A stretch of 64,000 nucleotides of DNA, from assembly GCA_017608025.1 (NCBI GenBank), contig JAFCGM010000004.1, positions 90,744 through 154,743 of the forward strand, in the 5' to 3' direction. Positions within the stretch are counted from its first letter, which is position 1. Each line of letters begins with the position of its first letter. Below the pieces are notes generated by a model. The model was not told the origin of the DNA. It made no database searches and saw nothing but the letters and a program-made list of their open reading frames with translations. Origin of the DNA: Candidatus Pacearchaeota archaeon. Its GTDB lineage: Archaea; Nanobdellota; Nanobdellia; UBA10117; JABICX01. The translations under genes were made by a program, and so were the position numbers. This document shows positions 8,287 through 59,955 of the stretch, piece by piece.

Positions 8287-8687
8287 TAAAATCAAAAAAA
8301 TCTCTTATTTACATAATGGAAACAATGCTTTGTGCAGTGGCTTTTGCGCTTATATTATTCTACTTTTCAAACTCGTTCTCAAGCCTTGAACAAGATACTT
8401 CTGAAATTGATACAGATAGCTTAATATATTCTTTAATTAATACTCGGGAAGTAAATATTTCATCAATTCCCAACATAAAAACAAGTTCAGAAAGAATAAT
8501 GGGTACAAGCTTCGAACTTAAAATGTTTTTTATAAATTCAAGCTGCTACATACTAAACTCCACAGATAGTCTTATTCAGAACTCAAATTGCTCATACTCA
8601 TTCAACACAAACAAAAATGTATTTTCCGGAGAAGCAAAAATAAGCACAGGAGAAACAATAAAAATATTATTTTGGAGGAAAATGTGA
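8277..8687 (+). CDS. Pilin-like protein with a class III signal peptide.
   Basis: N-terminus MELIKSKKSLIYIMETMLCAVAFALILF. Overlaps the upstream gene. Confidence 0.4.
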   Translation: MELIKSKKSLIYIMETMLCAVAFALILFYFSNSFSSLEQDTSEIDTDSLIYSLINTREVNISSIPNIKTSSERIMGTSFELKMFFINSSCYILNSTDSLIQNSNCSYSFNTNKNVFSGEAKISTGETIKILFWRKM

Positions 8688-19085: not shown

Positions 19086-19988
19086 ATGGTTTTAGAGTCA
19101 ATAATCCCAGTAAACATTGCTGAGGAAAGGCCGATTAAAATTCTTCCTACAAGTTTCATATATGCCACAATAGCCTTGTTCATTGCTTATTGGCTTTTCC
19201 CAACAGAAGCTAGCATGACTCTAATTTTTTTCACAGTAATGGCTTGCCTTCCTCTAATGCTTGGCCTAATCGGACTTGAAAAACTAAAAGCAGAAGCAAT
19301 TTTAAAGGAAATAGTTTTTGACTATGTATCTCAACCAAATAAAAAAACATCAAATCCTTTCAAAACCCACAAAAAATTCTTCCTGTTTATGACATACTTA
19401 ACAATTGGACTTGTTCTTGCATTCACTCTTTGGTATATTGTTCTGCCAACAAATATGGTAAATCTTCTTTTCAATTCCCAAATAAACACAATAAACACAA
19501 TAAACAGCAATGTGTCCCATCTAACTGGAAATGCAATAAACATTATATCTTATTTCAGCATAATACTTACAAACAATCTCAAGGTTTTGATTTTCTGTCT
19601 TCTCTTTTCTTTCATTTATGGAGCAGGAGCAATTTTCATTCTTGTTTGGAACGCCAGTGTTGTATCTATTGCAATTGGAAATTCAATTAGAGGTCTTTTA
19701 AGCAGTTACGCAGCAGCAACTGGAGCAAACACTCTTAGTCAGTATTTCTCTGCCTTCTCTCTTGGACTCTTGCGATATATTGTACATGGAATTCCTGAAA
19801 TCGGAGCATATTTTATTGGTGGGCTTGCTGGAGGAATGATTTCAATTGCAATTATAAAACACGAATTTATGAGTCCTAAATTCAAAATAATTTTAATGGA
19901 CGCCCTCCTGCTAATGCTAATTTCTGTCGGGCTTCTAATCCTTGCCGCACTTATAGAAACCTTTATCAGTCCACTAATTCCTATTTAA
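19086..19988 (+). CDS. SpoIIM-like (DUF95 family) polytopic membrane protein, paralogue 1.
   Basis: Multi-TM protein. Conserved core NNLKVLIFCLLFSFIYGAGAIFILVWNASVV is shared with the downstream paralogue. Confidence 0.5.
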   Translation: MVLESIIPVNIAEERPIKILPTSFIYATIALFIAYWLFPTEASMTLIFFTVMACLPLMLGLIGLEKLKAEAILKEIVFDYVSQPNKKTSNPFKTHKKFFLFMTYLTIGLVLAFTLWYIVLPTNMVNLLFNSQINTINTINSNVSHLTGNAINIISYFSIILTNNLKVLIFCLLFSFIYGAGAIFILVWNASVVSIAIGNSIRGLLSSYAAATGANTLSQYFSAFSLGLLRYIVHGIPEIGAYFIGGLAGGMISIAIIKHEFMSPKFKIILMDALLLMLISVGLLILAALIETFISPLIPI

Positions 19989-20331
19989 GTCATTGTTCTT
20001 TTGATGAAATTTTTTCAAAAAGTTTCCGCCAGCGCTTTTTCTAAAAGGGGCTTTTTTCTTTTCCGCAGCCGCTTTTTCTAAAAGGGGCTTTGGGGTTGGA
20101 AGACCTCTAAATTAGTTTTCTTTTTAGGACGGGTTTTTCTTTTTCTAAAAGAAAAAAGCATTTGGGAATGCAAACACTTTTCTAAAGGGTTTGCAGAGGC
20201 GTTCATCAGTCCGCTAATTCCTATTTAAGTCATTGTTCTTTTGATGAAATTTTTTTCCAAAATTTCAATTTTTTGCGAGCTTTGTTCTTGCTCTAAGAAA
20301 GCTTAAATAATACTCTTACTACAATTAATTT
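19965..20331 (+). repeat. Composite repeat element between the SpoIIM paralogues, flanked by a 52-bp direct duplication of the paralogue-1 3' end (19965-20016 and 20205-20258). It contains tandem ttccgc(c/a)agc(g/c)gctttttctaaaaggggct units and the terminal gggaatgcaaacacttttctaaagggtttgc hairpin.
   Basis: Direct repeats read directly from the sequence. The terminal hairpin GCAAAC...GTTTGC abuts the second target copy, as at the Hef and radA loci. Confidence 0.6.
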
Positions 20332-21174
20332 ATGGTTTTAGAATCAATAATTCCAATAAAAACAGCAGAAAAGCAACCAATAGAAATGCTGCCTCTGGCT
20401 TTTTTGTATGCTTCAATTGGAATTTTCATTGGATACTGGATTTTTCCAAATTACGCAAGCCTCTCTTCTGTTTTCTTCACAGTCCTTGCTCTAGTGCCTT
20501 TAATGGTAAGTTTCATAAAATTCGAGGAAAAAGATGTTTTCAAAAAGCAGGAAAAATGGCATCACAAAAAAGCAATTCCTTTTTTTTGCTTTATGTTTCT
20601 CGGCCTTGTTTTTGCTTATTCATTTTGGTTCATAGTGTTCCCTTCTTCTCTAATTGGAAGTGTTTTTGGAATTCAGCTTAACACAATAAATCAAATAAAC
20701 AGCCAAGTAACTGGAAATTCTGCAGCAGTATCGTTTTTTTCAGCAATTTTATCAAACAATCTCAAGGTTTTGATTTTCTGTCTTCTCTTTTCTTTCATTT
20801 ACGGAGCAGGAGCAATTTTCATTCTTGTTTGGAATGCAAGCGTGGTTTCAGCAGCAATTGGAAATGGAGCTAGAGCATTAATTTCAAAACTTGTAGAAAC
20901 AACAAACCTACCAGGAATTGCAGTGTATTTCTCTGCCTTCTCTCTTGGGTTACTTAGGTATATGTCTCATGGAATTTTCGAAATGATTGGCTATTTCCTA
21001 GGCGGGCTTGCTGGTGGACTGATTTCTGTTGCAATTCTCCGTCACGAATTTATGGATAATAATTTCAAAAAAGTAATGCTCGATTCATTAACCTTAACTC
21101 TTTTTTCAATAGCAGTTTTGATTCTGGCTGCAGTAATAGAAGTTACTTTCTCACCCTTAATTCCATTTAAATAA
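20332..21174 (+). CDS. SpoIIM-like (DUF95) membrane protein, paralogue 2.
   Basis: ~45% identical to 19086-19988 overall, but shares an 83-bp tract (20755-20837) with only 2 mismatches to 19572-19654. Confidence 0.5.
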   Translation: MVLESIIPIKTAEKQPIEMLPLAFLYASIGIFIGYWIFPNYASLSSVFFTVLALVPLMVSFIKFEEKDVFKKQEKWHHKKAIPFFCFMFLGLVFAYSFWFIVFPSSLIGSVFGIQLNTINQINSQVTGNSAAVSFFSAILSNNLKVLIFCLLFSFIYGAGAIFILVWNASVVSAAIGNGARALISKLVETTNLPGIAVYFSAFSLGLLRYMSHGIFEMIGYFLGGLAGGLISVAILRHEFMDNNFKKVMLDSLTLTLFSIAVLILAAVIEVTFSPLIPFK

Positions 21175-31989: not shown

Positions 31990-32904
31990 TTACTTTGTGC
32001 TCTCAATCCTTTCCCAATTGTCTGTGTATTTCTTTCTTCGTATTTTTGTGTCATAAAAAACCAAAATCCAGATCAAAAGTCGAAATCCAAAAAGCAAAAA
32101 TGTCCAGAAAAGCTCTTTCAAATTCCTTACATATCTCAATGCTCTAAAGCTTCCATATTTAACTTCATTCCAAAATGACTTCATCCTCGGAACCCTTAAA
32201 ATATCAACATATCTTTCCAAAGTCTCGTGCGCCTTTGCAGTCCTCCTTCTTTGCTTTATCCAATCCCCAAGCGTCTCTGGATTTTTGACATAAACTTTAG
32301 CATTCGGAGCATAATCAATTTTCCATCCTTTTTCATAAAACAAATACGGAATTACTGAATCTTCTGCAACATCAAGCGGGATCTTATCCACAATTCCTTT
32401 CCTAAAACCAAACAAATACCCTGAACACTCTAAAAAACCTTTTTTTGCCTGCCTTCTTCTTTGCTCATGCGCACCAGCCTCAAAAAGCAGCCAGGACCAG
32501 TATCCTAACATCGTCTTTCTTGAATCCTGTGGAATCGGCCTTCCTGAAACAACACCTACATTTTTCTTTTGAAATTCTTTAATAAGCTCGTTAATTGCAT
32601 TCTTGCCTAAGTAAACATCTCCGTCAGTAAAAATCCAAAAATCTCCTTTAAGTTTTTTGAAAATCAAATTCAAAGCATAAGATTTTCCTTTGCCAGGGTC
32701 TTTGAAATACTTAACTTGATTATGCTTCTTCTCATATTTTTTAATTATATCTGAGGTTTCTTTATCTGGCGCAGCAACAATTAATTCATACTCATCTTTA
32801 ATTTTCTGATTAATAATAGACTTAATAGCCTTACCAATTGTTTTCGGCTCTTTAAAAGCAGTAATTACAATTGAAAGCTTAATTTTCTGAGACTTCATCT
32901 TCAA
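31990..32904 (-). CDS. Family 2 glycosyltransferase.
   Basis: LSIVITAFKEPKTI and FTDGD (DXD) motifs. Confidence 0.7.
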   Translation of the reverse strand: MKMKSQKIKLSIVITAFKEPKTIGKAIKSIINQKIKDEYELIVAAPDKETSDIIKKYEKKHNQVKYFKDPGKGKSYALNLIFKKLKGDFWIFTDGDVYLGKNAINELIKEFQKKNVGVVSGRPIPQDSRKTMLGYWSWLLFEAGAHEQRRRQAKKGFLECSGYLFGFRKGIVDKIPLDVAEDSVIPYLFYEKGWKIDYAPNAKVYVKNPETLGDWIKQRRRTAKAHETLERYVDILRVPRMKSFWNEVKYGSFRALRYVRNLKELFWTFLLFGFRLLIWILVFYDTKIRRKKYTDNWERIESTK

Positions 32905-33508
32905 TTATTTCTGCTAAGGTATGGTATATTAATAAATGTGCCTCTTGAATTCTTGGTGTTGAATTTGAAAGAACAACTATATTCAAATCAGTAAATTCTT
33001 TTAGTTTTCCTCCATCTCTTCCAAGCAAACCAATTATTTTAATTCCTTTTTCTTTTGCCAGTTTAGCAGCACTTAATAAATTTGCAGAATTTCCACTTGT
33101 AGATATCAAAAACAAAATATCTCCTTCTTTTCCAATAGCTTCAAGTTCTCTTGAAAACTGCTCATCATAATTTATGTCATTAGACCAAGCAGAAACAACT
33201 GCAGGATTTGTTCCAAGAGCAACTGCTGAAATCGCTTTTCTCTTCTTGTTGAAAAAAGAATTAACCAGTTCAGCAGTAAAATGTTGCGCATCTGCCATTG
33301 AACCGCCGTTTCCAGCAGTAATAATTTTATTACCTCTTTTAACACAGGAAATCATTTCTTCTGCAGCCTCACAAATATTTAACTTTGAATCAGAAATGAG
33401 ATTGATTACTTCCTTGTGTTCTTTCATATTTATTAAAAATTTTTCAATTATTTTCATTTTTTCCCCTCCAATAATCCAAAGAATCCTTGATTGTTTGGTC
33501 AATTCCAA
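32879..33508 (-). CDS. gmhA: Sedoheptulose-7-phosphate isomerase GmhA (SIS domain). Probable true start MKIIEKF (33457).
   Basis: ITAGNGGSMADAQHFTAEL and LISTSGNS SIS motifs. Confidence 0.75.
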   Translation of the reverse strand: MELTKQSRILWIIGGEKMKIIEKFLINMKEHKEVINLISDSKLNICEAAEEMISCVKRGNKIITAGNGGSMADAQHFTAELVNSFFNKKRKAISAVALGTNPAVVSAWSNDINYDEQFSRELEAIGKEGDILFLISTSGNSANLLSAAKLAKEKGIKIIGLLGRDGGKLKEFTDLNIVVLSNSTPRIQEAHLLIYHTLAEIIEDEVSEN

Positions 33509-38015: not shown

Positions 38016-39023
38016 TTGTTCAAAATGCTTAAAGTTCCAATAAATGAAATAATAGAAAAAATTTCAGAAGCCAGCGGCCTTTCTGACGCAGAAATAAAAA
38101 AGAAAATACAAGAAAAAATGAATTCCTTAGAAGGCCTTGTTTCAGAAGAAGGAGCAGCACACATAATTGCTCATGAACTTGGAATAGAACTTTTCAAAAC
38201 AAGCTATGAAAAGGAAGTTAAAATAAAAGAGCTTCCAATTGGATTAAGAAAATTCGAAATAGTTGGTGTAATAACTAATGTTTTTAATGTGAAGACTTTC
38301 AAAAAGCAAAATAAAACTGGAAAAGTTGCATCATTTATTCTAGAAGATGAAACAGCAAGAATAAGAGTAACTCTTTGGAATGAAGCTACAGATCTTGTTG
38401 AAACAGGAAAAATAGCAGAAGGAAAAACAATCAAAATAAAAAATGGACTAGTAAAAATAAACAAATACCAAGGACGTGAAAACAAGGAAATTCACACAAC
38501 ATCTGGAACGAAAATTGAGTTTGATGTTGAAGAAAAAATAGAAATTCATGACAGAACAAAAGCTCCTGCATATGAATTTAAAAATATAAATCAAACAAAA
38601 GCAGGAGATTTAGTTAAAATAAGAGGAACAGTTGTTTCTGTTTTCATGCCCAAACTTTATTTTGCTTGCCCTGAGTGTAACAAAAAAATAGAAGTTGAAA
38701 ATGAAAAAGGAATTTGCAAAGACCATGGTGATGTTAAGCCAAAGAAAACAGCTCTTTTCTCTTTTGTTGTTGATGATGGAACTGACAACATTCGTTGCGT
38801 GTCATTCCGTGAAACAGCAGAATCAATATTGAACATGTCACCAGAAGATATTGAAGTTGCTCAGGAAGAAAATATTAATCAAAGAATATTAGGAGATGAA
38901 GTGGAAATTGTCGGAAGAGTTAATGAAAACAAGCAGTCTGGAAAAAAAGAAATACTCCTCTCAGGAGTTAACAAAAATTTAAATCCAGTTCAAATTGCAA
39001 AAAGCATATTAGGTGATAATTAA
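38016..39023 (+). CDS. rpa: Replication protein A (ssDNA-binding) with an OB fold and a C4 zinc ribbon.
   Basis: RPA-like N-terminus (...[16 protein letters not shown]), OB domain, [21 protein letters not shown] zinc finger. Confidence 0.65.
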
Positions 39024-40099
39024 TGGCAAAAAAAACAAAACCTGAAAAAAAAGAGGAAAAAATTTCAGAAGAAATTGCAGAAAACAATCCAGAAGAAAAA
39101 GCAAAACAAAAAAAAGAATCTGATGAAATAAAAGAAAAAGAAAAAGTAGCTACAATGAAAATCGAGGACTTACCTGGAGTTGGTCCGGCAACTGTTGAAA
39201 AGCTAAAGGAAGCAGGTTATTTAGACTTAATGAGTCTAGCAGCAGCCCCTTCTCGTGAACTTGCAGACATAGCAGGAATGACTGAATCTGGAGCAGGAAA
39301 AGTTATTGTTGCTGCAAGAAAAGCTCTTAAAATTGATTTCATGACAGGAGATGAATTATCTTCAAAAAGAAAAAGTATTGAAAGAATATCAACTGGAAGC
39401 CAGGAATTTAACAAGCTTATTGGTGGGGGAATTGAAACACAAGGTCTGTTTGAATGCTTTGGTGAATATGGTTCTGGAAAATCCCAACTAGCAATGCAGT
39501 TGGCAGTTATGGCTCAGCTTCCAAAAGAAAACGGAGGTCTCAACAGTGATGTAATTTACATTGACACAGAAAACACATTCCGGCCAGAAAGAATAAAGCA
39601 AATAGCAGAAGCGCAAGGCCTTGACTCTAAAAAAGTATTGAAAAGAATAATGGTAGCTCGGGCATTCACATCAGATCATCAAATGCTGCTTGCAGAAAAA
39701 ATTGACAGTATGATTCGTGAAAAGAATATACACGTAAGGCTTGTAATAGTAGATTCCTTAACTTCATTATTCAGAACAGAATATTCTGGAAGAGGAACTC
39801 TCGCCACAAGACAGCAAAAACTTAATCGACATCTTCACACTCTGCAGAGAATCGCAGACATACACAACATAGCAGTTTACGTAACAAACCAAGTAATGGC
39901 TCGGCCAGACATTTTCTTTGGAAACCCAACAGCAGCAATAGGAGGTCATGTTCTAGGGCATGCCTGCCAGTTCAGAGTTTACCTTAGAAAAAGCAAAGGA
40001 GACAAAAGAATCGCCCGCTTAATAGACTCTCCATATTTACCAGAAGGCGAAGCAATCTTCAGAGTAACTGAAAAAGGAATTGAAGATATTAAGTCCTAA
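39023..40099 (+). CDS. radA: DNA repair and recombination protein RadA, with a Lys/Glu-rich N-terminal extension or an alternative start at 39155.
   Basis: HhH ([13 protein letters not shown]), Walker [10 protein letters not shown], RecA core. 358 aa. Confidence 0.9.
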
Positions 40100-40440
40100 C
40101 TTGTGTTAAGCAATCACTTTTTTGATGAAACTTTTTCTAAAATTTCAATTTTTTGCAAGCTTTCTTTCTAAGAAAGCTTTGGGAATGAAAACACTTTTTA
40201 AAGGGTTTTCTGTAACTGAAAAAGGAATTGAAGATGTTAAGTCTTAATTACAGGTATCGTATTTTGTTTACCTGTTGAAAGTGCCAGCTGATTTTGCAGC
40301 TGGAAGATGTTAAGTCTTAATTACAGGTATCGTATTTTGTTTACCTGTTGAAAGTGCCAGCTGATTTTGCAGCTGGAAGATGCTAAATCCTAACTTATAT
40401 TAAGCAATCCATTTTTTTAATGAAACTTTTTCTAAAAGAG
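40066..40440 (+). repeat. Nested/tandem array downstream of radA: four direct copies of the radA 3' end (40066-40099, 40214-40247, 40303-40320, 40376-40393). They are separated by a ~95-bp family element and by two copies of a 55-bp two-hairpin module (40248-40302 and 40321-40375; period 73 bp).
   Basis: Copies ...gaagat(a/g)ttaagtc(c/t)taa. Module ttaCAGGTAtcgtattttgttTACCTGttgaaagtgcCAGCTGattttgCAGCTG with two perfect stems. Confidence 0.65.
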
Positions 40441-40473
40441 AATCTTTTTATTTTTCTCTGAGTTTATTAGTTC

Positions 40474-41349
40474 ATGTTCATAATTTACATCTTAACTGCA
40501 ATAGCTGTTATATATACTTTAGTCGGAGCTTACACAGACATACGCTGGCGTATTTTTCCTGACTATTTAAGCTATTCTTTAATTCTTTTCGGCCTCTTTG
40601 GAAATCTTTTCTTGTCAATAGAAACAGGAAATAGTGCTTTTTTCGCAAATTCAGTGCTTTTCCTTATTCTTGCCTTTTCAATTGGATATTTTCTGTCTTA
40701 CTTTGGTTTGTGGGGAATGGGTGATACAAAAATACTGGCTGGTTTTGCTGCGGTTTTTTCAATCTGGCCGTCTTTCCAGTCATTTCCATTATTTCAAGCC
40801 CCATGGCCTTTTGTAGTAACAATTTGGCTTAATGCTGTATTGCTTGCGCCTTTCCTTGCTGTTGCTTTCATGACTTTCCATATAATAAAAAACAGAAAAA
40901 AGCTTCTGATATTAATAAGAAAAAAATTCCAAAAATACAGAAAAGTAACATATATATTTGCAGCTTCTCTCGTGCTTTTTTCAATAATTTATTTTACGAC
41001 TCCTGTGTATGGTTTGTATTTTTTGGTTTTATGGGCGTTTGCAATTCTTTTCACATACTTTTCAATCCTTGCAAAGATAATGGATTCAAATATCTATGAA
41101 CTGAAAAAACCGTCTGAATTAATTGAAGGAGACTATCCTATCGAACTGAAATTAAAAATACCTGGAAAGCTAAAAAAATGGGGTCTTGAAAAAAATCAAA
41201 TAAATTACATAAAAAGTCACACAAAAAAGCAACTTAAAATAAAAAGAGGATTTCCAATGATTGTAGCATATGCATTTTCCTTGTTGATTTCCTTATTTTC
41301 AGGAGACCTTACCTACAAAATAATTTATTCTTTAATTCATATAATTTAA
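40474..41349 (+). CDS. Type IV prepilin/preflagellin peptidase (A24 family, PibD/FlaK-like).
   Basis: Catalytic Asp motifs YTDIRWRIFPD and WGMGDTKIL in a polytopic membrane protein. Confidence 0.65.
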   Translation: MFIIYILTAIAVIYTLVGAYTDIRWRIFPDYLSYSLILFGLFGNLFLSIETGNSAFFANSVLFLILAFSIGYFLSYFGLWGMGDTKILAGFAAVFSIWPSFQSFPLFQAPWPFVVTIWLNAVLLAPFLAVAFMTFHIIKNRKKLLILIRKKFQKYRKVTYIFAASLVLFSIIYFTTPVYGLYFLVLWAFAILFTYFSILAKIMDSNIYELKKPSELIEGDYPIELKLKIPGKLKKWGLEKNQINYIKSHTKKQLKIKRGFPMIVAYAFSLLISLFSGDLTYKIIYSLIHII

Positions 41350-42470: not shown

Positions 42471-43946
42471 TCAAATTCTAAACTTAACCACAATCTTAGG
42501 ACCATCTTCAGAATCCTGAATCTCATATCCTTTTGAAGCCAGCTCATCTCTAATTTTGTCTGCCTTTTCCCAGTCTTTGTTTTTTCTTGCTTTTTCTCTC
42601 TCATCAACTTTATTTAAAATCTCTTTTGGAATTTCTTCCTTATAATCCAAAACACCTAAAACAGAATCAAATTTCTCAAGTTCCTGAAGCAAAATTTTTG
42701 CTCCTTTTTTGCTCAGCTCCTTTTTTGAAATAAGCTTATTTCCTTCAGAAATCATCTCAAAAATAAAAGCAATTCCTTTTGAAATATTAAGGTCGTTGTC
42801 CATTGCTTTTTCAAATTCCTTTCTTGTGTTTTTTGAAAGAACTACTCCGTCATTCTTGCCATTGCTATTGTAATTTTCCAAATCTTTCTTAAAGGAAAGA
42901 ATCTTCTGCAAGGCTTTGTTTGAAGCCTGAAATGAATCAAATGTAAAATTAAATGGTTTCCGATAATGCTTTGAAAGCAGAAAAAATCTGAACTGTTGTG
43001 GAGTAAACCCTCTCTTGTATATATCTTCTGGAGTGTAAAAATTACCTGTCCTTTTGCTCATCTTCTCTCCTTCAACAAACAAGTGCCTTACATGCATCCA
43101 AAAATTTGAAAAATCTTTTCCAGTAGCGCCTTTTGTCTGGGCAATCTCTGCCTCATGATGTGGAAATATATTATCTTCTCCGCCAGTGTGAATATCAATT
43201 GTCTCAAATTTTTTTGGATAAAATTTTCCTTTTGAAAAGCAGTTTGACAAATATTTCATTGCCATAACCGAACATTCAATATGCCATCCAGGATACCCGT
43301 GGTCATTCCATGGAGACGACCACCACATTAAATGATCTGGATCATTAACCCACAGCGAAAAATCATAAAAATGCCTCTTTTCTTTGTTTGAATCTACATC
43401 CCGTCCAGACTTGCCTTCCTCAAGTTTTTCAATAGTATTTCCTGAAAGCTTTCCATACTCTGGAAATTTTGAAATATCATAATAAACGCTTCCATTAACT
43501 TCATAAGCAAGTTTCTTTTTAAGCAAAACAGAAATAACTTGCTGCATTTCCTTTATATGGTCTGTTGCTCTTGGTCGATGATATGGCTTTTTAAGATTAA
43601 GCTTTTCGCATTCCTTTTCAAATGCATTTTCATAAAACCGAGCAATTTCTTCTGGAGAAATTTTTTCTTTCTTGGCTTTTTTCTGAATCTTGTCTTCTCC
43701 TTTTTCCAAATCATCATCAGACAAATGCCCTACATCAGTAATATTCATAACCTGCTTAACTTCAAAACCCTTATATTCCAAATACCGTCGCAAAACATCT
43801 GCAAAAACAAAGCTACGAAAATTGCCAATATGCGCATAATCATAAACTGTTGGTCCGCAATTGTACATTCTCACAACGTTTCCCTTAACTGGTTTGAAAT
43901 TCTCAAGTTTTTTAGAATAAGTATTGTAAAACCTAAGACTCATCAT
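42471..43946 (-). CDS. cysS: Cysteinyl-tRNA synthetase.
   Basis: HIGN (HIGH) and KMSKR (KMSKS) motifs, 491 aa. Confidence 0.9.
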   Translation of the reverse strand: MMSLRFYNTYSKKLENFKPVKGNVVRMYNCGPTVYDYAHIGNFRSFVFADVLRRYLEYKGFEVKQVMNITDVGHLSDDDLEKGEDKIQKKAKKEKISPEEIARFYENAFEKECEKLNLKKPYHRPRATDHIKEMQQVISVLLKKKLAYEVNGSVYYDISKFPEYGKLSGNTIEKLEEGKSGRDVDSNKEKRHFYDFSLWVNDPDHLMWWSSPWNDHGYPGWHIECSVMAMKYLSNCFSKGKFYPKKFETIDIHTGGEDNIFPHHEAEIAQTKGATGKDFSNFWMHVRHLFVEGEKMSKRTGNFYTPEDIYKRGFTPQQFRFFLLSKHYRKPFNFTFDSFQASNKALQKILSFKKDLENYNSNGKNDGVVLSKNTRKEFEKAMDNDLNISKGIAFIFEMISEGNKLISKKELSKKGAKILLQELEKFDSVLGVLDYKEEIPKEILNKVDEREKARKNKDWEKADKIRDELASKGYEIQDSEDGPKIVVKFRI

Positions 43947-44112
43947 TTTCCTCCTTTATATTTTCAACACTATTTTTTGGATGAAACTTTTTTTCAAAAC
44001 CCAAAACAGGAATATCAAAATCAACTGACAACTCAATATCCTTTTTTAAAAAACTCAAAAAATCTTCTTGATTAACAAACTCTTTTTTCAAAAGTTCTAA
44101 ATCACAAAAAAA

Positions 44113-44185
44113 GCACGGGGCGGGATTTGAACCCGCAATCTTACGGGCTGCAACCGTACGCCTTACCGGATTTGGCCACCCGTGC
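44113..44185 (-). tRNA. tRNA-Cys (anticodon GCA).
   Basis: Minus-strand cloverleaf GCACGGG-TG-GCC..GGC-G-TACGG-TTGCAGC-CCGTA-AGATT-GCGGG-TTCAAAT-CCCGC-CCCGTGC. 73 nt, directly upstream of cysS on the same strand. Confidence 0.85.
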
Positions 44186-44212
44186 AATTCTTGCCAAATT
44201 TCCTCCTTGTAC

Positions 44213-44219
44213 TTTAAAA
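44213..44219 (-). promoter_or_regulatory. TATA-like box (minus-strand TTTTAAA) about 28-34 nt upstream of tRNA-Cys.
   Basis: AT-rich box at the archaeal TATA distance from the mature tRNA 5' end. Confidence 0.35.
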
Positions 44220-44286
44220 CTAAATTGTTTTCCTCAGCAAAATTCAAGAACTCGTTATCTATCTTTAAATTCTTAAGCTGTACAGG

Positions 44287-44543
44287 GATGCTCACCCTTA
44301 CATTCCATTTTAATTTACCTTGATTTTCCGTGAACACTTTTCTTAAAAGGGTTCTTGTTTTTTTGATGAAACTTTTTCTAAAAGTTTCCGTGAACACTTT
44401 TCTTAAAAGGGTTCTTGTTTTTTTGATGAAACTTTTTCTAAAAGTTTCCGTGAACACTTTTGCAGGCATCGTATTTTATTCGCCTGCTCAGAGTGCCAGC
44501 TGATCTCTCAGCTGTGGTGCTCACCCTTACATTCCATTTTAAT
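44287..44543 (+). repeat. Repeat locus upstream of tRNA-Cys. 25-bp direct repeats (44290-44314 and 44519-44543) flank two and a fraction tandem 60-bp units (44325-44384, 44385-44444) plus one 52-bp two-hairpin module (44462-44513).
   Basis: Unit tttccgtgaacacttttcttaaaagggttcttgtttttttgatgaaactttttctaaaag. Module GCAGGCatcgtattttattcGCCTGCtcagagtgcCAGCTGatctctCAGCTG. Confidence 0.65.
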
Positions 44544-46097: not shown

Positions 46098-46814
46098 ATG
46101 ATTAAAGAAAAAATCATGCCAAAATTGAAAACAGGAGCAAAACCTCTTGATGTAATGCTTAATGGCGGAATAGAAAATGGAATTATAAGCACAGTCTATG
46201 GTCCAGCTGGCTCTGGAAAAACAAACATAGGGCTAATTGCAGCAGCAAATGCTGAAAAAGAAGGTAATGTTATTTTTATAGATACTGAAAGCTCTTTTTC
46301 TATGGAAAGATATTATCAAATTTCTGGAAAAAGAAAACTGGATAACATAGAGCTTATTGAACCAGTTGAATTTGAAGAGCAAAAAAAAGTTATAAGAAAT
46401 TTAAGGGAAAAAGTAAATGAAAAAGAAATAAAATTAATTGTTATTGACTCCTTAACTATGCTCTACAGATTGGAGCGTTCAGAAAATCATGAAGAAGTGA
46501 ATTTGGAACTAACAAAACAGCTCTCGATTTTGTCATCAATTGCAAGAAAAAAGAACATAGCAATTCTTGTAACAAACCAAGTTTATTCTGATTTTGAGAA
46601 AAAAGGTTCAATTAAAATGGTTGGTGGGGACATCTTAAAATATTGGAGTAAATGCATTGTCCGTCTTGACAAAAAAGAAGGACTTAGTAACATACGAAAA
46701 GCCACTTTAGTGAAGCACCGCTCTTTACCTGAAAATCGTAGTTTTTATTTCAAAATTACGCAATTTGGAATTGAAGAAACTCAGCCAGAAAAAAAGAAAA
46801 TTAATCTTTTTTAG
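46098..46814 (+). CDS. radB: DNA repair protein RadB.
   Basis: Walker A GPAGSGKTN, RecA core without an N-terminal HhH, 238 aa. Confidence 0.8.
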   Translation: MIKEKIMPKLKTGAKPLDVMLNGGIENGIISTVYGPAGSGKTNIGLIAAANAEKEGNVIFIDTESSFSMERYYQISGKRKLDNIELIEPVEFEEQKKVIRNLREKVNEKEIKLIVIDSLTMLYRLERSENHEEVNLELTKQLSILSSIARKKNIAILVTNQVYSDFEKKGSIKMVGGDILKYWSKCIVRLDKKEGLSNIRKATLVKHRSLPENRSFYFKITQFGIEETQPEKKKINLF

Positions 46815-52739: not shown

Positions 52740-52835
52740 TACTCCTCCATTGCACTGCGCGTAAACGTATGTGCAATCAAATTGCGAGCTTTTTCGAAAG
52801 CTCTGAAATTTTTATTTCCGTTTTATTCCTGCTCC
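52740..52835 (+). repeat. Direct duplication of the RHH gene 5' end (gaaatttttatttcc[a/g]tt...tcctcc) at 52722-52750 and 52803-52835.
   Basis: Read directly. The second copy lacks the start codon. Confidence 0.5.
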
Positions 52836-52993
52836 TTATCAACAAGAACAATAACTCGTTTTCCAATTAATTTTTTCGGAAGTGTGATTTTTCCAGATGA
52901 AGCATTGTTTTTAATAACATATCTTGTTAAAATTTGGTTAAAGTTTATTGGCTTCAACTTAACACTTCCCCGAACTTTCGCATTAATTCCCAT
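52823..52993 (-). CDS. 56-aa AbrB/MazE/SpoVT-like swapped-hairpin DNA-binding protein. Not in the supplied ORF track because it is under 60 aa.
   Basis: Translation MGINAKVRGSVKLKPINFNQILTRYVIKNNASSGKITLPKKLIGKRVIVLVDKEQE. The GKITLPKKL..GKRV motif resembles the AbrB swapped hairpin. ATG at 52991-52993 (rc), TAA at 52823-52825 (rc). Confidence 0.35.
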   Translation of the reverse strand: MGINAKVRGSVKLKPINFNQILTRYVIKNNASSGKITLPKKLIGKRVIVLVDKEQE

Positions 52994-53359
52994 TAAATTA
53001 ATTCCTCATCTTTCTAATTTGTTTCTTTGGGCAACTTGCACTTTCTTTTCTAAAGAAAGGGCAGAGCATTAATTCCCATTAAATTAATTCCTCGTCTCTC
53101 TAATTTGTTTCTTTGGGCAACTTGCACTTTCTTTTCTAAAGAAAGGGCAGAGCATAACTTTTATAGTCTAATTAAAGACTACAATATTTAAAAACCTTAT
53201 GTGCATCCTTGCTCTACACGATCATATTCGTCATTTTCCGCAAGCGCTTTTTCCAAAAGGGCTCCATGAGTCCCTTGGCTAGAAGGACTATAACCAGAAT
53301 TAAACCGTTGTGTGAAGCTCTGCTTTACACGACCAGCCTGTGTCCCTTGGCTAGAAGGA
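52979..53359 (+). repeat. Two tandem 87-bp units (52979-53065 and 53066-53152), each beginning with a copy of the AbrB-like gene start. These are followed by a ~120-bp GC-richer family element (53235-53359) carrying two gtcccttggctagaaggacta hairpin motifs.
   Basis: Tandem units are near-identical. The 53235-53292 segment is ~90% identical to 3041-3100. Confidence 0.6.
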
Positions 53360-55531: not shown

Positions 55532-55581
55532 TAAGCATCACCGTCTTAAAAAATACACATCATACTACAATAAAAAGATTT

Positions 55582-55770
55582 CTAAAATATAACGTATGCT
55601 TCTTAAATTATATTTCTTTTAGTGCAGGTTTTCTTTGTAAAAGAAAAAGTGCAAAGGTCTCTAAAATATAACGTATGCTTCTTAAATTATATTTTTTTCT
55701 TTGTAAAAGAAAAAGTGCAAAGGTCTCTAAAATATAACGTATGCTTCTTAAATTATATTTCTTTTAATAC
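55582..55770 (+). repeat. Three tandem direct repeats (79, 66 and a partial ~45 bp) upstream of the TraB-family gene.
   Basis: Unit ctaaaatataacgtatgcttcttaaattatattt(c)tttt...ctttgtaaaagaaaaagtgcaaaggtct. Units begin at 55582, 55661 and 55727. Confidence 0.7.
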
Positions 55771-55857: not shown

Positions 55858-56514
55858 ATGTCTCTCAAAATACTTGGCTCATCGCACATATCAGGAAAAT
55901 TCGCAAGCAAGGTTTATGACACAATAATCGTTGAAGAACCAGAAATTGTTGCAGTTGAATTAGACTTAGCTCGCGCCCGCGCTTTATTTTCAAAACAAAA
56001 ACAAAAAATTTCATTTAAAACAATAAGGAATTTCGGCCTTTTTGGGTTCTTTTTTGCACTTATTGGATCTAAAATACAGAAATATTTAGGTAAAAAAGTT
56101 GGTTTTGAACCTGGAATTGACATGAAAAAGGCAATTATTGCAGCAAAAAAAGTAAATTCAAAAATAATTCTCATTGACCAGCCAATGAGTAAAACACTTC
56201 AAAAACTTTCCAAAATTAGTTTTAAAGAAAAAGTAAAACTTTTCTTTTATTTAATTTGGCCATTTCAAAAAAAAGCTAAAATGTCTTTTGATTTGTCTTC
56301 TGTGCCAAATGAAAAAACAATTAATAAAATAATAAAAGATTTTAAAGAAAAATTTCCTGGAATTTATTCGGTGCTTATTAAAGAAAGAAATGATTTTATT
56401 GCAAAAAACTTAATTGATTTAAAAAGAAAATTTGAAAATTTAAACATTGTAGCTGTTTTGGGAGCAGGACATGTTTCTGAAGTAAAAAAATTAATTAAAA
56501 ATTTTGAAGAATAA
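55858..56514 (+). CDS. TraB/PrgY-family protein (Tiki/TraB fold).
   Basis: N-terminus ILGSSHISGKFASKV, GHVSEV near the C-terminus. 218 aa. Confidence 0.6.
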   Translation: MSLKILGSSHISGKFASKVYDTIIVEEPEIVAVELDLARARALFSKQKQKISFKTIRNFGLFGFFFALIGSKIQKYLGKKVGFEPGIDMKKAIIAAKKVNSKIILIDQPMSKTLQKLSKISFKEKVKLFFYLIWPFQKKAKMSFDLSSVPNEKTINKIIKDFKEKFPGIYSVLIKERNDFIAKNLIDLKRKFENLNIVAVLGAGHVSEVKKLIKNFEE

Positions 56515-56526
56515 TTAAAAATATTT

Positions 56527-56818
56527 TTAAAAAAATTATTTTAATATAATATTTTTTTAAATATAAATTAAAACAAAAAAAAGCATTTTTTAACTGAAAT
56601 ATGCAAAAAAAATAGCAAAAATTAAATAAAAAATTAAATAAAAATTATTTTTTATTAAATTAAAACAAAAAATAAGTAAATTTAATGAAAAATCATAAAA
56701 AATACATAAAAATCATGAAAAAAAGATTTAAAAAAATTATTTTAATATAATATTTTTTTAAATATAAATTAAAGCAAAAAAAGCAAGAGATAAGTTTTTA
56801 TGTTCTGAAATATACAAA
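56527..56818 (+). repeat. Extremely AT-rich (>90% AT) intergenic region containing a ~200-bp tandem duplication. The 59-bp near-identical cores are at 56527-56585 and 56727-56785, with weaker similarity continuing about 30 bp beyond each.
   Basis: tttaaaaaaattattttaatataatatttttttaaatataaattaaa(a/g)caaaaaa(a)agca occurs twice, 200 bp apart. Confidence 0.7.
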
Positions 56819-57673: not shown

Positions 57674-59872
57674 ATGCAATTCTTAAAGCAAAAGCTAAAT
57701 TTAAGAGTGTATCAGCAAACAATATTAAACACAGCTCTTAGCAAAAATACTCTTTGCGTAATCCCTACTGGTCTTGGAAAAACCTACATAGCAATAGCTC
57801 TAATTGGCTTAAAATTAAAAGAAAAAAAAGCAATTTTTCTTGCTCCAACTAAGCCTCTTGTAACGCAGCACTTTAACACCTTTAAGCAGTTTTTTGATTC
57901 TGAACCCGAAGAAATAATTGAAGTTTCTGGAACAGTTCCTTCAAAAAAAAGAAAAGAAATGTATAAAAAAGCAAAAATAATTTTTGCAACCCCACAAACA
58001 ATTGAAAATGACATAATTACAAAAAGAATACTTCCTGAGGAATTTTCAATAGCAATATTTGATGAAGCTCATCGCGCAGTAGGAGACTATGCATATGTTT
58101 TCCTTGCAAAGCAATTCAAAGAAAGTAGAATTCTAGCATTAACAGCTTCTCCCGGTCATGAAATTGAAAAAATAAATGAAATAAAAAATAACCTGTTTAT
58201 TCAAGAAATTGAAAAAAGAACACAAAAAGACAAAGATGTTAAAGAATATGTAAAGGAAATTAAATTTCAGTACAAAAAAGTTGAGCTTCCAAAACTTATG
58301 AAAGCAATACAAAAACACCTTAAAATGGCAATGAAAGAATATCTTGTCCAACTAAAGGAATTAGATATTATTGACTCAACCAGCTTGTCAAAATTCAGCA
58401 GAAAAAACCTTCTAAATCTTCAAACTAAACTTCGTACGCAAATAAGCACAGGAGATTTTGAAATAATGCGCGCCCTATCAATAACAGCAAGACTAATAAA
58501 AATAAATTATGCCCTTCATCTTCTTGAATCTGAATCGCTGAATGCCTTGAATGATTATTTAAAGTCAATTTGGAAAGATTCAAAAACAACAAAAACAAAA
58601 GCAGTAAAAGCTCTTGTCCAAAATTTCCATATTCGTGCAGCATACAGGCTTTCTCAAGAATGTAAAGAAAAGAAAATAGAGCACCCAAAAATGCTTGAAC
58701 TGAAAAAAACAATTAAACAGGAATTGAAAAAAAATCCCAACTCAAAAATACTAATTTTCACTGAATACCGAAGCAATGTTGAGCAAATTGTACAAGAATT
58801 ATCTGAATTTAAAATTCATCAGTTTGTTGGCCAATCCTCTTTAAAGAAAAAAGGAATGTCGCAAAAAGAGCAGATTAAAGCAATAGAAGATTTAAAAACA
58901 GGAAAAGTTAATGTTCTTGTCTGCACTTCTGTAGCTGAAGAAGGCCTTGACATTCCAAAAGTGGATTTAATTGTTCTTTATTCTCCAATTCCTTCTGCTA
59001 TTAGGTCAATACAAAGAAAAGGAAGAACTGGCAGACAGGAAGTTGGAAATCTTGTAGTCCTTTTAACAAAAGACACAAAAGATGAAACTTATCATTGGAT
59101 TTCTGTAAATCGGGAAAGGAAAATGAATCAAGTGCTTACAAACATGTCACAGTCAAAAAGCAAGCTAATAACTCTTGACTCCTTTCAAAACAAAAGCAAA
59201 GAAAAGCAAACTGTTGAAAATAGGGAAGAAATAAAAGTATATTGTGATTGCCGCGAATCAGGAATATTAAAATATCTCATAGAGCACGGCGTTACAGTTC
59301 TTCCAAAAAAACTAGAAGTTGCAGACTTCATTCTCTCTGATGATATTGCAGTTGAAAGAAAGGAAGTAGAAGATTTTACTTCTTCTTTAATTGACCAACG
59401 CCTTTTTAACCAAGCAACTGAACTAAAACGAAACTTCGAAAAACCGCTTTTTATTATTGAAGGAGACTTATCAGAAATTTTCTTTTCAAGAAACATAAAT
59501 CCTGATGCTCTCCGCTCAGCAATGATCTCTTTGCTTGTTGATTATCAAATACCTTTTTTATTCAGTTCAAACAAGCAGGAAACTGCAAAATACCTTTACC
59601 TCATAGCTAAAAGAGAACAAATTGAAAAGAAAAAATTAATTTCCTTACGCGGCTCCAAAAGATTAACTTCAATTCCAGAAATGCAGCAATTCTTTATTGA
59701 AGGTTTGCCTTTAATTGGTCCTGCTCTTACAAAAAAGCTCCTAAAGCACTTCAAAACACCAAAAGCTTTGTTAAATGCCTCAAAAGAAGAGCTTCAAAAT
59801 GTTAAAAACCTCGGCCCAAAAAAAGCAGAAAAAATCAAAATGATTCTTGAAGAAATATATGATGAAGAATGA
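57674..59872 (+). CDS. hef: Hef (helicase-associated endonuclease for fork-structured DNA; XPF/FANCM homologue).
   Basis: SF2 helicase motifs (GLGKT, DEAH), XPF nuclease ERK motif (AVERKEVEDF), C-terminal HhH2. 732 aa. Confidence 0.85.
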   Translation: MQFLKQKLNLRVYQQTILNTALSKNTLCVIPTGLGKTYIAIALIGLKLKEKKAIFLAPTKPLVTQHFNTFKQFFDSEPEEIIEVSGTVPSKKRKEMYKKAKIIFATPQTIENDIITKRILPEEFSIAIFDEAHRAVGDYAYVFLAKQFKESRILALTASPGHEIEKINEIKNNLFIQEIEKRTQKDKDVKEYVKEIKFQYKKVELPKLMKAIQKHLKMAMKEYLVQLKELDIIDSTSLSKFSRKNLLNLQTKLRTQISTGDFEIMRALSITARLIKINYALHLLESESLNALNDYLKSIWKDSKTTKTKAVKALVQNFHIRAAYRLSQECKEKKIEHPKMLELKKTIKQELKKNPNSKILIFTEYRSNVEQIVQELSEFKIHQFVGQSSLKKKGMSQKEQIKAIEDLKTGKVNVLVCTSVAEEGLDIPKVDLIVLYSPIPSAIRSIQRKGRTGRQEVGNLVVLLTKDTKDETYHWISVNRERKMNQVLTNMSQSKSKLITLDSFQNKSKEKQTVENREEIKVYCDCRESGILKYLIEHGVTVLPKKLEVADFILSDDIAVERKEVEDFTSSLIDQRLFNQATELKRNFEKPLFIIEGDLSEIFFSRNINPDALRSAMISLLVDYQIPFLFSSNKQETAKYLYLIAKREQIEKKKLISLRGSKRLTSIPEMQQFFIEGLPLIGPALTKKLLKHFKTPKALLNASKEELQNVKNLGPKKAEKIKMILEEIYDEE

Positions 59873-59955
59873 TTTGGGGATGCAAACACTTTTTCAAAGG
59901 GTTTGCTGCTGAAAAAATCAAAATGATTCTTGAAGAAGAATTTAGTGAGGAGTAA
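59825..59955 (+). mobile_element. 35-bp hairpin element (59873-59907, tttggggatGCAAACactttttcaaaggGTTTGCtgct) inserted at the Hef 3' end with a ~48-bp duplication of the gene tail (59825-59872 and 59908-59955).
   Basis: Copy 1 encodes ...AEKIKMILEEIYDEE*. Copy 2 encodes ...AEKIKMILEEEFSEE*. The first 30 bp are identical and the ends have diverged. Confidence 0.55.

What the first reader, a model, noticed from the sequence alone, without database searches (positions are those of the whole stretch)
40066..40440. radA is followed by four nested copies of its own 3' end interleaved with a 55-nt two-hairpin module in a 73-bp tandem arrangement
Copies of ...gaagat(a/g)ttaagtc(c/t)taa occur at 40066-40099, 40214-40247, 40303-40320 and 40376-40393. 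Between them lie a 95-bp family element and two copies of ttaCAGGTAtcgtattttgttTACCTGttgaaagtgcCAGCTGattttgCAGCTG, which has two perfect 6-bp stems. A diverged copy of the same two-hairpin module is at 44462-44513 upstream of tRNA-Cys. Serial insertion into the same target, each time re-duplicating the gene tail, implies strong site preference. The two-hairpin module looks like a structured RNA or protein-recognition unit.
Basis: seen in the sequence. Interest (0 to 1): 0.65.

Follow-up and report, generated by a model that had tools for sequence, protein, structure and literature searches.

The report
Hairpin repeat pile-up duplicating radA's tail
The DNA just after the recombinase gene radA of this tiny (DPANN, Woesearchaeota-like) archaeon holds small hairpin-forming repeat elements, each followed by a fresh copy of the gene's last 18-36 bases; the same happens at many gene and tRNA ends in this lineage, and one of the element families also forms tRNA introns in related genomes.

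Summary
Four copies of the radA tail, each with a stop codon, lie at 40064-40099, 40212-40247, 40303-40320 and 40376-40393. They are separated by a 112-nt block of three hairpin modules and by two identical 55-nt two-hairpin modules (M). A third M, 81% identical, lies at 44460-44516.

The locus is not unique. The window has 21 local direct-repeat pairs against 0-1 in shuffles. At least nine gene or tRNA ends carry hairpin blocks flanked by 17-42-nt duplications of the target.

The orthologous radA site is empty in three relatives and filled with other M variants plus a duplicated tail in a fourth. M's stems show compensatory changes. M matches no Rfam family and folds equally well on both strands.

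One module family in the 112-nt block (G-type) makes up ~50-nt tRNA introns in other Woesearchaeota-like contigs. It also sits behind protein genes there, flanked by duplicated tails. The displaced tails still encode the same peptide: 42 of 66 differences fall at third codon positions.

Best reading: DNA-level insertion of small non-autonomous hairpin elements with long target duplication, followed by tandem amplification of the 73-nt unit. The enzyme is unknown.

The parts
39023..40099 (+). radA (358 aa), the gene whose 3' end is copied
   Evidence: Pfam Rad51 E=3e-89 plus HHH_5. Best homologues are Woesearchaeota RadA.
40064..40099 (+). Tail copy A: the functional last 36 nt of radA, ending ...EDIKS*
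40100..40146 (+). Module 'Fa': T-rich leader plus hairpin GAAACTTTT-TCT-AAAATTTC (H-a family)
   Evidence: Seven + strand copies of GATGAAACTTTTTCTAAAA in the window against 0.5 expected. Family D2/D13.
40157..40179 (+). Perfect 10-bp palindrome AAGCTTTCTT-TCT-AAGAAAGCTT
   Evidence: A similar copy follows the second SpoIIM tail copy at 20239-20283.
40178..40210 (+). G-type module: leader TTTGGGAATG plus hairpin GAAAACACTTTTTAAAGGGTTTTC. It ends 1 nt before tail copy B.
   Evidence: Families D3/D5. 86-94% identical to 20161-20192 and 59865-59904. Same architecture as the tRNA-intron element.
40212..40247 (+). Tail copy B (36 nt, 2 differences from A, ends in TAA)
40248..40302 (+). M copy 1: two-hairpin module (ACAGGTA/TACCTGT and CAGCTG/CAGCTG)
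40303..40320 (+). Tail copy C (18 nt, identical to the end of B)
40321..40375 (+). M copy 2, identical to copy 1
40376..40393 (+). Tail copy D (18 nt, EDAKS*), probably the original radA end
   Evidence: It is followed by the old downstream sequence.
40394..40437 (+). Fa': diverged copy of Fa, with a degenerate H-a hairpin
   Evidence: 92% over 38 nt.
40438..40473 (+). Probable promoter of the next gene (CTTTTTATTT about 30 nt before the ATG). Inferred only.
   Evidence: The same TTTTTATT box at the same distance from the ATG is present in L001 and L003.
40474..41349 (+). Peptidase A24-like (prepilin peptidase) gene, downstream neighbour in all relatives
44289..44314 (+). Left copy of a 26-nt direct repeat flanking the second M-containing block
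   Evidence: Single copy in L001 at 14355-14376.
44325..44461 (+). 60-nt unit x 2.3 (two hairpins of the CTTTT...AAAAG type)
44460..44516 (+). M copy 3 (81% identical, 2 compensated pairs in stem 1)
44518..44543 (+). Right copy of the 26-nt direct repeat, starting 2 nt after M

Best explanation
The spacer after radA is an insertion hot spot. It has been filled by small, non-coding, hairpin-forming repeat elements that are mobile at the DNA level in this lineage.

How each insertion looks. Each element lands at or just behind the stop codon and leaves a direct duplication of the last 18-36 nt of the target on its far side. radA therefore stays intact, and the old tail is pushed downstream.

Inferred history.
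1. The ancestral spacer was about 30-35 nt.
2. M inserted behind the stop codon and duplicated at least 18 nt. This produced copy D, which still carries the old downstream sequence Fa'.
3. The 73-nt unit (tail + M) doubled by unequal recombination or slippage between the flanking tail copies.
4. A 112-nt block of three hairpin modules, ending in a G-type module, inserted behind the stop codon and duplicated 36 nt. This produced copy B.

Shown versus inferred. Shown: the anatomy, the empty and filled orthologous sites, the dispersed module families, stem covariation, and the generality of the pattern. Inferred: the order of events and the mechanism. The mechanism could be a long staggered break that is filled in, or a template switch at a hairpin. 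The enzyme is unknown. The hairpins are probably what the machinery recognises. Some modules carry T runs and may incidentally act as terminators.
For: Empty and filled sites.
- The radA site is empty in L001, L089 and L090. L087 has simple hairpins and no tail copy there. L003 has M variants between two tail copies.
- The second M block at 44.3-44.5 kb is flanked by a 26-nt repeat, and that site is single-copy in L001.

The pattern is general.
- The window has 21 local direct-repeat pairs against 0-1 in Markov shuffles. Other archaeal radA loci have a median of 0.
- Hairpin blocks flanked by repeats lie at 2941/3104, at 8675/8917, at tRNA-Met 15343/15510, at the RNase HII tail (three copies), and at the SpoIIM and Hef tails. 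The 8675/8917 block splits an overlapping stop/start junction that is intact in L086.
- The RNase HII tail is duplicated around a G-module in L084, and around a different insert ending in an M-type hairpin in L086. The tRNA-Met 3' end is triplicated in L085.

The modules are dispersed families.
- Modules at different loci are 85-100% identical.
- The downstream copy always starts 0-7 nt after the 3' foot of a hairpin.
- M stems covary: 3 pairs are compensated and 98% of cells are paired.

Other points.
- Precedent for long, variable target duplications: IS1549 and IS1634 make repeats of 8-514 bp (PMC2266710).
- No mobile-element gene is needed nearby if the elements are non-autonomous, and none was found in the window.
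Against: - No transposase, integrase, reverse transcriptase or Cas1 lies in the 64 kb, and the rest of the genome could not be read.
- A plain target duplication should decay neutrally, but the displaced tails look protein-constrained: 42 of 66 differences are at codon position 3.
- The upstream copy ends exactly at the stop codon in most events. Random staggered cuts do not predict this.
- Within a genome the two tail copies share lineage-specific variants (window versus L084). This requires gene conversion or recurrent insertion.
- The start of the 112-nt block resembles the old radA downstream sequence. That could instead mean a local or allelic duplication.
- M has only three full copies in 64 kb, two of which are one tandem event.
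Confidence: 0.5

Rival explanations
1. Site-specific (att-type) integration. Each block is, or is the remnant of, an integrative element that carries its own replacement copy of the gene tail. On integration the element's copy becomes the functional tail and the resident tail is displaced. Serial integrations then nest the tails. This is essentially the first reader's reading.
For: - Tail copies end exactly at the stop codon and begin at the same position in different genomes: 35 nt for RNase HII in the window, L084 and L086.
- The tRNA-Met repeat starts in the T-loop, which I recall as a common tRNA attachment point for integrases (not checked here).
- Differences between copies are mostly synonymous and stop codons are kept, as expected if the element-borne tail is selected.
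- A model of tRNA disruption by integrating elements exists (PMC3293823).
Against: - The 'elements' are 35-225 nt, too small for double-stranded circles and without any gene.
- At least eight different targets in 64 kb would need as many specificities.
- The same G-module sits at many unrelated targets.
- Window and L084 tail pairs share lineage-specific variants, so the upstream tail is not foreign there.
- No integrase is present in the window.
Confidence: 0.15
2. Purely local events. Replication slippage, or duplication protected by a hairpin in a flap, copies the gene end plus spacer in tandem. The copies then diverge, and no element moves between loci.
For: - Clear recent tandem duplications exist: 60, 66, 73 and 86-nt units in the window at 97-100% identity (plus a diverged AT-rich 92-nt array at 79%), and an 85-nt unit in L001.
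- The 2.9-kb and SpoIIM loci show duplicated spacers extending well beyond the exact repeat.
- Copy A plus Fa resembles copy D plus Fa'.
Against: - It cannot explain the same 35-100-nt modules at 85-100% identity at unrelated loci or in other genomes and inside tRNA genes.
- At RNase HII and tRNA-Met the sequence after the second tail copy is not a second copy of the insert.
Confidence: 0.12
3. M is a functional structured RNA in the radA 3' UTR (terminator, stabiliser, small RNA or protein-binding site), kept in multiple copies for dosage.
For: - Conserved hairpins with compensatory changes, and loops more conserved than stems.
- T runs in both loops on the radA strand.
- Five of the six M-type copies are sense to the adjacent gene.
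Against: - No Rfam match even at E<=10.
- Both strands fold equally well.
- The copy at 44.46 kb is antisense to both neighbours.
- Close relatives do without it at radA.
- It does not explain the duplicated tails.
Confidence: 0.1
4. RNA-level, intron-like elements. The blocks are removed from the transcript, or the transcript is processed at them, so the displaced tail is the one that is translated at least part of the time.
For: - The G-module family forms ~50-nt introns in many tRNA genes of related contigs.
- T-loop introns there show the same arrangement of repeat, element, repeat (L140, L142, L143).
- Displaced tails keep the peptide: L127 has 15 of 16 amino acids identical at 75% nucleotide identity.
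Against: - No bulge-helix-bulge fold could be drawn by eye at the radA or RNase HII junctions; no BHB search tool was run.
- The direct repeats at the junctions cannot pair with each other.
- In L111 versus L136 the displaced tail evolves as if neutral (2 non-synonymous and 1 synonymous change), while the upstream tail has only synonymous changes.
- The G-module is antisense in tRNAs but sense behind protein genes.
Confidence: 0.08
5. Assembly artefact: the tandem array or the nested tails arise from mis-joined strain variants or collapsed repeats.
For: - Three of the four sharp intergenic arrays (97-100% identical) show 2.0-2.3 copies. Short-read graphs cannot resolve higher numbers for 60-86-nt units.
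- The source is a metagenome-assembled contig.
Against: - The same architecture appears in independent assemblies from other samples: L003, L084, L085, L086, L094, L103 and L127.
- The repeats (17-42 nt) are shorter than usual assembly k-mers.
- The copies differ at a few positions rather than being identical.
Confidence: 0.03

Closest known systems
REP / BIME elements of bacteria (mosaics of short extragenic palindromes, thought to be moved by RAYT transposases)
   Same: Short imperfect palindromes of family type. They are combined in mosaics and tandem arrays, packed against gene ends and sometimes supply the stop codon (PMC3733652). Their stems covary.
   Different: No GTAG/CGTC head. This is an archaeal lineage. 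Each block is flanked by a 17-48-nt duplication of the target, which I do not recall for REPs (PMC3733652 never uses the word 'duplication'). No RAYT gene was seen in the window.
MITEs and IS1634/IS1549-type insertion with long, variable direct repeats
   Same: Non-autonomous small elements with target duplication. IS1549 and IS1634 make repeats of 8-514 bp, and that family is common in archaea (PMC2266710).
   Different: No terminal inverted repeats beyond the hairpin itself. No partner transposase was found. Insertion is strongly biased to the position just behind stop codons and tRNA ends.
Mobile archaeal tRNA introns (Thermoproteales intron transposition, Fujishima 2010, as reviewed in PMC4090602)
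   Same: One module family here (G-type) is the body of ~50-nt introns in many different tRNA genes of related contigs, at canonical and T-loop positions. The mechanism of such intron spread is stated to be unknown and thought to act on DNA.
   Different: At radA the modules lie outside any tRNA, behind a protein gene, with long tail duplications. M itself was not found inside a tRNA. No bulge-helix-bulge was seen at the junctions.
Integrative elements in gene or tRNA 3' ends, and their gene-less remnants (CIMEs)
   Same: Nested direct repeats of the 3' end. The displaced tail is kept. The tRNA-Met repeat starts in the T-loop.
   Different: Size of 35-225 nt, no genes, many targets, and module families shared between targets.
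Neisseria intergenic mosaic elements (repeat units separated by 20-bp dRS3 repeats). Recalled from memory, not checked here.
   Same: Arrays of the form repeat, unit, repeat, unit behind genes.
   Different: There the short repeat is one genome-wide sequence. Here it is the local gene's own tail.

Membership tests
Rfam RNA families | Covariance-model match at the gathering score | tested here: not met
   Only two tRNAs in the window reach the gathering score. Between 39950 and 40500 the best match is 24 bits against a threshold of 115.
CRISPR array | Identical repeats separated by unique spacers, usually with cas genes | tested here: not met
   The intervening 55-nt units are identical to each other, and the 'repeat' is the gene's own tail. 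No cas domains in the window ORFs.
Diversity-generating retroelement | Template copy of the gene end differing at adenines, with a reverse transcriptase nearby | tested here: not met
   Differences are A/G and C/T transitions at mixed positions. No reverse transcriptase in the window.
REP/BIME | Short palindromes with a conserved GTAG or CGTC head | tested here: not met
   Palindromes are present, but the heads are TTTGGGG (G-type) or absent (M).
REP/BIME | RAYT (IS200/IS605-like) gene in the genome | not testable with these tools
   None in the 64 kb.
MITE | Terminal inverted repeats, a short target duplication of fixed length, and a related autonomous IS | tested here: not met
   Duplications are 17-48 nt and variable. 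No IS in the window.
Integrative element (att duplication) | Direct repeats of the target 3' end flanking an element that encodes, or once encoded, an integrase | tested here: inconclusive
   The repeats fit. The content is only hairpin modules of 35-225 nt, and there is no integrase in the window.
Archaeal bulge-helix-bulge intron | Located within an RNA gene or mRNA with a bulge-helix-bulge at both junctions | tested here: inconclusive
   Met for the G-module in tRNA genes of L093, L101, L108, L123, L124, L144 and L152 (ARAGORN intron calls). No such fold was recognised by eye at the radA junctions. No dedicated BHB search was available.
Archaeal mobile intron family | Near-identical intron sequence in different tRNA genes | tested here: met
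   GGAATCCCTTTGGAAAAGGTCTTCCAACCCCAAAG occurs in at least 13 tRNA genes with different anticodons. This applies to the G-type module, not to M.
Integron attC | RYYYAAC ... GTTRRRY core pair around an imperfect hairpin | tested here: not met
   GTTAAGT is present in copies B and C, but no partner ACTTAAC-type box lies in the unit (read).

The most novel reading that the evidence does not exclude
The hairpin modules are the DNA-mobile form of archaeal intron-type elements. The long duplications of gene and tRNA ends are then the footprint of their insertion, with a preferred length of about 35 nt. The displaced tails stay under protein-level selection because they are still used, either after RNA-level removal of the block or after reversible excision. 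If so, this would be the first visible insertion signature for archaeal intron transposition, and it would define a class of element that makes itself harmless by carrying the host gene's end across the insertion.
Probability: 0.15. Interest if true: 0.85.

Novelty: new variant of a known kind. Interest (0 to 1): 0.62.

Why it matters
Small hairpin repeats are well known in bacteria, but I found no description of them in DPANN archaea. Two things stand out here.

First, the insertions come with unusually long duplications (17-48 nt, often about 35) that exactly preserve the end of an essential gene or tRNA.

Second, one of the module families is also the body of tRNA introns in related genomes. 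How archaeal tRNA introns spread is an acknowledged open question (PMC4090602). Loci like this one offer filled, empty and serially filled sites from which the insertion chemistry could be inferred and tested.

There are practical consequences too. These blocks break assemblies, create false ORFs (for example 40122-40247 and 43933-44469), and can mislead annotation of gene ends.

Tried and rejected
Searches that led nowhere.
- Rfam at gathering and at permissive thresholds gave nothing relevant.
- Exact-pattern scans for M found 0 hits in genome contigs and metagenome contigs. A G-module scan of viral contigs also found 0. The source lineage is therefore absent from those collections.
- Look-up of the window's own RadA (also returned as P0001) found no contig on record, so the rest of the source contig could not be read.
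- The RadA scan of GTDB species genomes gave nothing closer than 69% identity, and none of those loci carried the modules.
- The covariance model of M found no copies beyond those used to build it, except a weak M-like module 5' of a tRNA in L123.
- About 35 of the 62 metagenome hits to the G hairpin are a coincidence inside one conserved coding sequence and were set aside.

Ideas considered and dropped.
- C/D-box sRNA: a UGAUGA box is present, but there is no CUGA at the right spacing.
- K-turn: tandem G.A pairs are present but the 3-nt bulge is missing.
- CRISPR, DGR and integron attC: see the membership tests.
- An ORF in the array: 40122-40247 is simply the reading frame running into tail copy B.
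- A + strand gene ending in the 26-nt repeat at 44.3 kb: no such ORF exists.
Full report
ORGANISM AND GENE CONTEXT. The window has 32% G+C. Its genes are housekeeping genes of a DPANN archaeon. RadA's best database matches are Woesearchaeota proteins. The local order is RPA-like OB-fold protein, radA (39023-40099), a peptidase A24-like gene (40474-41349), a 97-aa ORF, HIT, CysRS and tRNA-Cys. The same order is found in relatives L001, L003 and L087.

OBSERVATION.
- The tail motif GAAGATRYTAARTCYTAA occurs four times, at 40082, 40230, 40303 and 40376. Shuffles give a mean of 0.02.
- Copies A and B extend to 36 nt (40064-40099 and 40212-40247) and differ at 2 positions. Copy C equals the last 18 nt of B. 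Copy D differs from C at 3 positions.
- The 73-nt unit is present 2.2 times at 100% identity.
- M (55 nt) folds into a 7-bp and a 6-bp hairpin as RNA or DNA, on either strand, better than almost all shuffles.
- The third M copy is at 44460-44516.
- The stretch between A and B is 112 nt, not 95. It is a composite of three parts: a T-rich leader with the hairpin GAAACTTTT/AAAATTTC (40100-40146), a perfect palindrome (40157-40179), and a 'G-type' module with leader TTTGGGAATG plus a hairpin (40178-40210).
- Copy D with the next 44 nt is a diverged copy of A with its first 43 downstream nt. D therefore looks like the original gene end.

RELATED GENOMES AT THE SAME SITE.
- In L001 (RadA 79% identical), L089 and L090 the spacer between radA and the peptidase gene is 29-36 nt and has no repeats.
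- L087 has two simple hairpins and no tail copy.
- In L003 (83% identical) the site carries about 175 nt with three M-like modules. It lies between GAAAAAGGACTCGAAGATGCTTAG (1773-1796, functional) and GAGAACGGCATCGAAGATGCTTAA (1973-1996).
- The second M-containing block in the window (44315-44517) lies between two copies of a 26-nt sequence. That sequence is single-copy at the syntenic place in L001.
Both M loci therefore have an empty counterpart and a flanking duplication.

THE M FAMILY. Seven full or partial copies were aligned: window radA, window 44.46 kb, three in L003, the second hairpin alone in L086 and the second hairpin alone at window 8790.
- The two helices are paired in 98% of cells, with three pairs changed on both sides. 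Versions with the partners slid by 1-3 columns pair in only 18-49% of cells.
- The loop of hairpin 1 (TCGYWTTTTRTT) and the spacer AAAGTGC are more conserved than the stems.
- A covariance model recovers only these copies in about 440 kb of held sequence. The one addition is a weak M-like module directly 5' of an intron-containing tRNA-Met in L123.
Even so, nothing identifies M as an RNA gene: there is no Rfam match, both strands fold equally, and the copy at 44.46 kb is antisense to both neighbouring genes.

THE LOCUS IS ONE OF MANY. The window contains 21 pairs of direct repeats of at least 14 nt spaced 25-600 nt apart. Markov shuffles give 0-1. Eighty other archaeal radA loci have a median of zero. 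Read in detail, the loci are:
- a 17-nt repeat around a block after gene 2339-2941;
- a 17-nt repeat (GAGGAAAATGTGATGAA) around a 225-nt block that separates two genes whose stop and start overlap in L086;
- a 34-nt repeat of the tRNA-Met 3' end plus trailer around a 133-nt block;
- three copies of the RNase HII tail (35 and 27 nt);
- the SpoIIM tail plus terminator-like hairpin (42 nt exact, 72 nt at 88%);
- the Hef tail (27 nt exact).
Relatives repeat the pattern. L084 has the same G-module between two 35-nt RNase HII tails. L086 has a different 63-nt insert (9809-9871), ending in GCCAGCTGactgaaCAGCTG, between two 35-nt RNase HII tails. L085 has three nested copies of the tRNA-Met 3' end, with one hairpin module inserted in the loop of another.
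Two regularities hold. The downstream copy begins 0-7 nt after the 3' foot of a hairpin. The upstream copy usually ends exactly at the stop codon.
The blocks are built from a limited set of module families that recur at 85-100% identity at unrelated loci.

LINK TO tRNA INTRONS. A scan of metagenome contigs with the G-hairpin core gave 62 loci. About 35 are a coincidence in one coding sequence. In the rest, the module (TTTGGGGTTG plus hairpin) is found in three settings.
- Inside tRNA genes, always antisense to the tRNA. There it forms the body of introns of about 50 nt, at the canonical position in at least seven tRNAs.
- In the T-loop in L140, L142 and L143. In those cases the exon's last 8-9 nt are repeated at the far end of the intron.
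- Behind protein genes, in sense orientation, between duplicated tails of 35, 36, 36 and 48 nt (L094, L103, L111, L127).
Similar near-identical introns in different tRNA genes have been described for Thermoproteales. Their mode of spread is stated to be unknown and probably DNA-based (PMC4090602). Direct repeats near archaeal intron borders have also been reported (PMC11782384).
The G-type module in the radA spacer is a diverged member of this family by architecture, about 73% identical by eye. Typical members sit at the RNase HII tail and behind tRNA-Met in the window.

THE DISPLACED TAILS ARE NOT SIMPLY DECAYING. Twelve pairs of functional and displaced tails were compared.
- 42 of 66 differences are at third codon positions. 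P = 5e-7 against an expectation of one third. P = 4e-4 against 0.425, my estimate for one constrained and one free copy. P = 0.018 against one half.
- Every displaced copy keeps an in-frame stop codon.
- In L127 the two tails are 75% identical in DNA but 15 of 16 residues are identical. In L103 they are 83% identical in DNA and 12 of 12 residues are identical.
Two observations cut the other way.
- Between L111 and L136, which share the insertion, the upstream tail has three synonymous changes. The displaced tail has two non-synonymous changes and one synonymous change, as a free sequence would.
- In the window and L084, the two RNase HII tails of one genome share lineage-specific synonymous variants. 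This calls for gene conversion or repeated insertion.
I cannot reconcile these observations with one simple model and record them as unexplained.

ORIENTATION. The hairpin type CTTTT..AAAGGG occurs 14 times on the + strand and never on the - strand. All 21 BLAST matches between different intergenic regions are co-oriented. GC skew is negative over the whole window, so the window lies on one replichore. Ten of the 14 hairpins lie behind + strand genes, two lie in divergent promoter regions, and two loci lie between - strand genes. The bias could therefore follow the replication strand, which would suggest a single-strand intermediate. It could also largely follow the host gene, as the sense/antisense rule in other genomes suggests. 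One window cannot separate these.

MECHANISM. What is shown:
- insertion-like blocks with empty orthologous sites;
- flanking duplications of 17-48 nt, with a cluster at 34-36 nt for G-type events;
- dispersed module families;
- conserved hairpins;
- recent tandem doublings.
What I infer as most likely is DNA-level insertion of non-autonomous hairpin elements with a long target duplication. Amplification of the (tail + M) unit by recombination between the flanking copies followed. Long, variable duplications have a precedent in IS1549 and IS1634 (PMC2266710). No candidate enzyme lies in the window.
The rivals are set out with their evidence in their own section: att-type integration with element-borne tails, purely local duplication, a functional 3' UTR RNA, RNA-level intron-like removal, and assembly artefact.

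CAVEATS.
- Only 64 kb of the source genome could be read.
- The close relatives are short contigs from metagenome assemblies.
- Copy numbers of 60-86-nt arrays in short-read assemblies are lower bounds.
- The codon-position test pools small samples and some non-independent sites.
- Several comparisons of module boundaries were made by eye from the printed sequences.

VERDICT. The radA array is an especially clear example of a lineage-wide process that, as far as I could find in six literature searches, has not been described. I rate it a new variant of known kinds (REP/MITE-like repeats and mobile archaeal introns). Interest is moderate to high, mainly because of the long tail-preserving duplications and the link to tRNA introns.

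Noticed in passing
L084 357-799: The tRNA-Met gene of this relative is interrupted after the anticodon by an insert of about 364 nt that starts with an ATG-led reading frame. ARAGORN calls it a tRNA with an intron only in intron mode, and labels it tRNA-Leu.
   Followed up: partly
window 52980-53155: An 86-nt unit repeated 2.0 times (97%) duplicates the first 14 nt, the start codon and the upstream region of a 56-aa - strand gene (52823-52993). From the motif GKITLPKKLIGK the gene is probably AbrB/SpoVT-like. Here a gene START rather than a tail is copied, together with a hairpin.
   Followed up: partly
window 55581-55766: Three copies of a 35-41-nt AT-rich sequence alternate with two copies of the hairpin TTTTCTTTGTAAAAGAAAAA in a divergent promoter region. 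The architecture matches that at radA.
   Followed up: no
window 56487-56782: A very AT-rich intergenic region with several diverged ~92-nt repeats lies 6 kb from a Cdc6/Orc1 gene (62495-64000). It could be a replication origin, but GC skew does not change sign there.
   Followed up: no
window 19086-19988 and 20332-21174: Two tandem SpoIIM-like paralogues (segments 74-89% identical, 1183 nt apart). The displaced tail copy of the first gene lies between them.
   Followed up: no
L085 2000-2130 (reverse strand): A G-module hairpin carries a 45-nt insertion of two further small hairpins in its loop, so modules nest inside one another.
   Followed up: no
L123 4229-4281: An M-like two-hairpin module (GTATTCAGC/GCTGAATAC, spacer AAAGTG, GAACTG-ATTTCG-CAGTTC) ends at the first base of a tRNA-Met gene that itself carries a G-module intron.
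   Followed up: partly
window 43933-44469 and L001 13926-14357: ORFs of 178 and 143 aa run across tRNA-Cys and the repeat block. They have no Pfam match and are almost certainly false gene calls created by the repeats.
   Followed up: partly
window 32904-33444: A 539-nt gap between called ORFs reads like - strand coding sequence. It may be an unannotated or frameshifted gene.
   Followed up: no
window 46098-46814: A second, short Rad51/RadA-family protein (238 aa, RadB-like) lies 6 kb downstream of radA.
   Followed up: no
L105 and L109: A 28-nt repeat (TGTCAGTGTCAAGCTGGCTGCTCTCACC) flanks a hairpin block ending in a G-module. The target does not look like a protein tail and may be an RNA gene end.
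   Followed up: no
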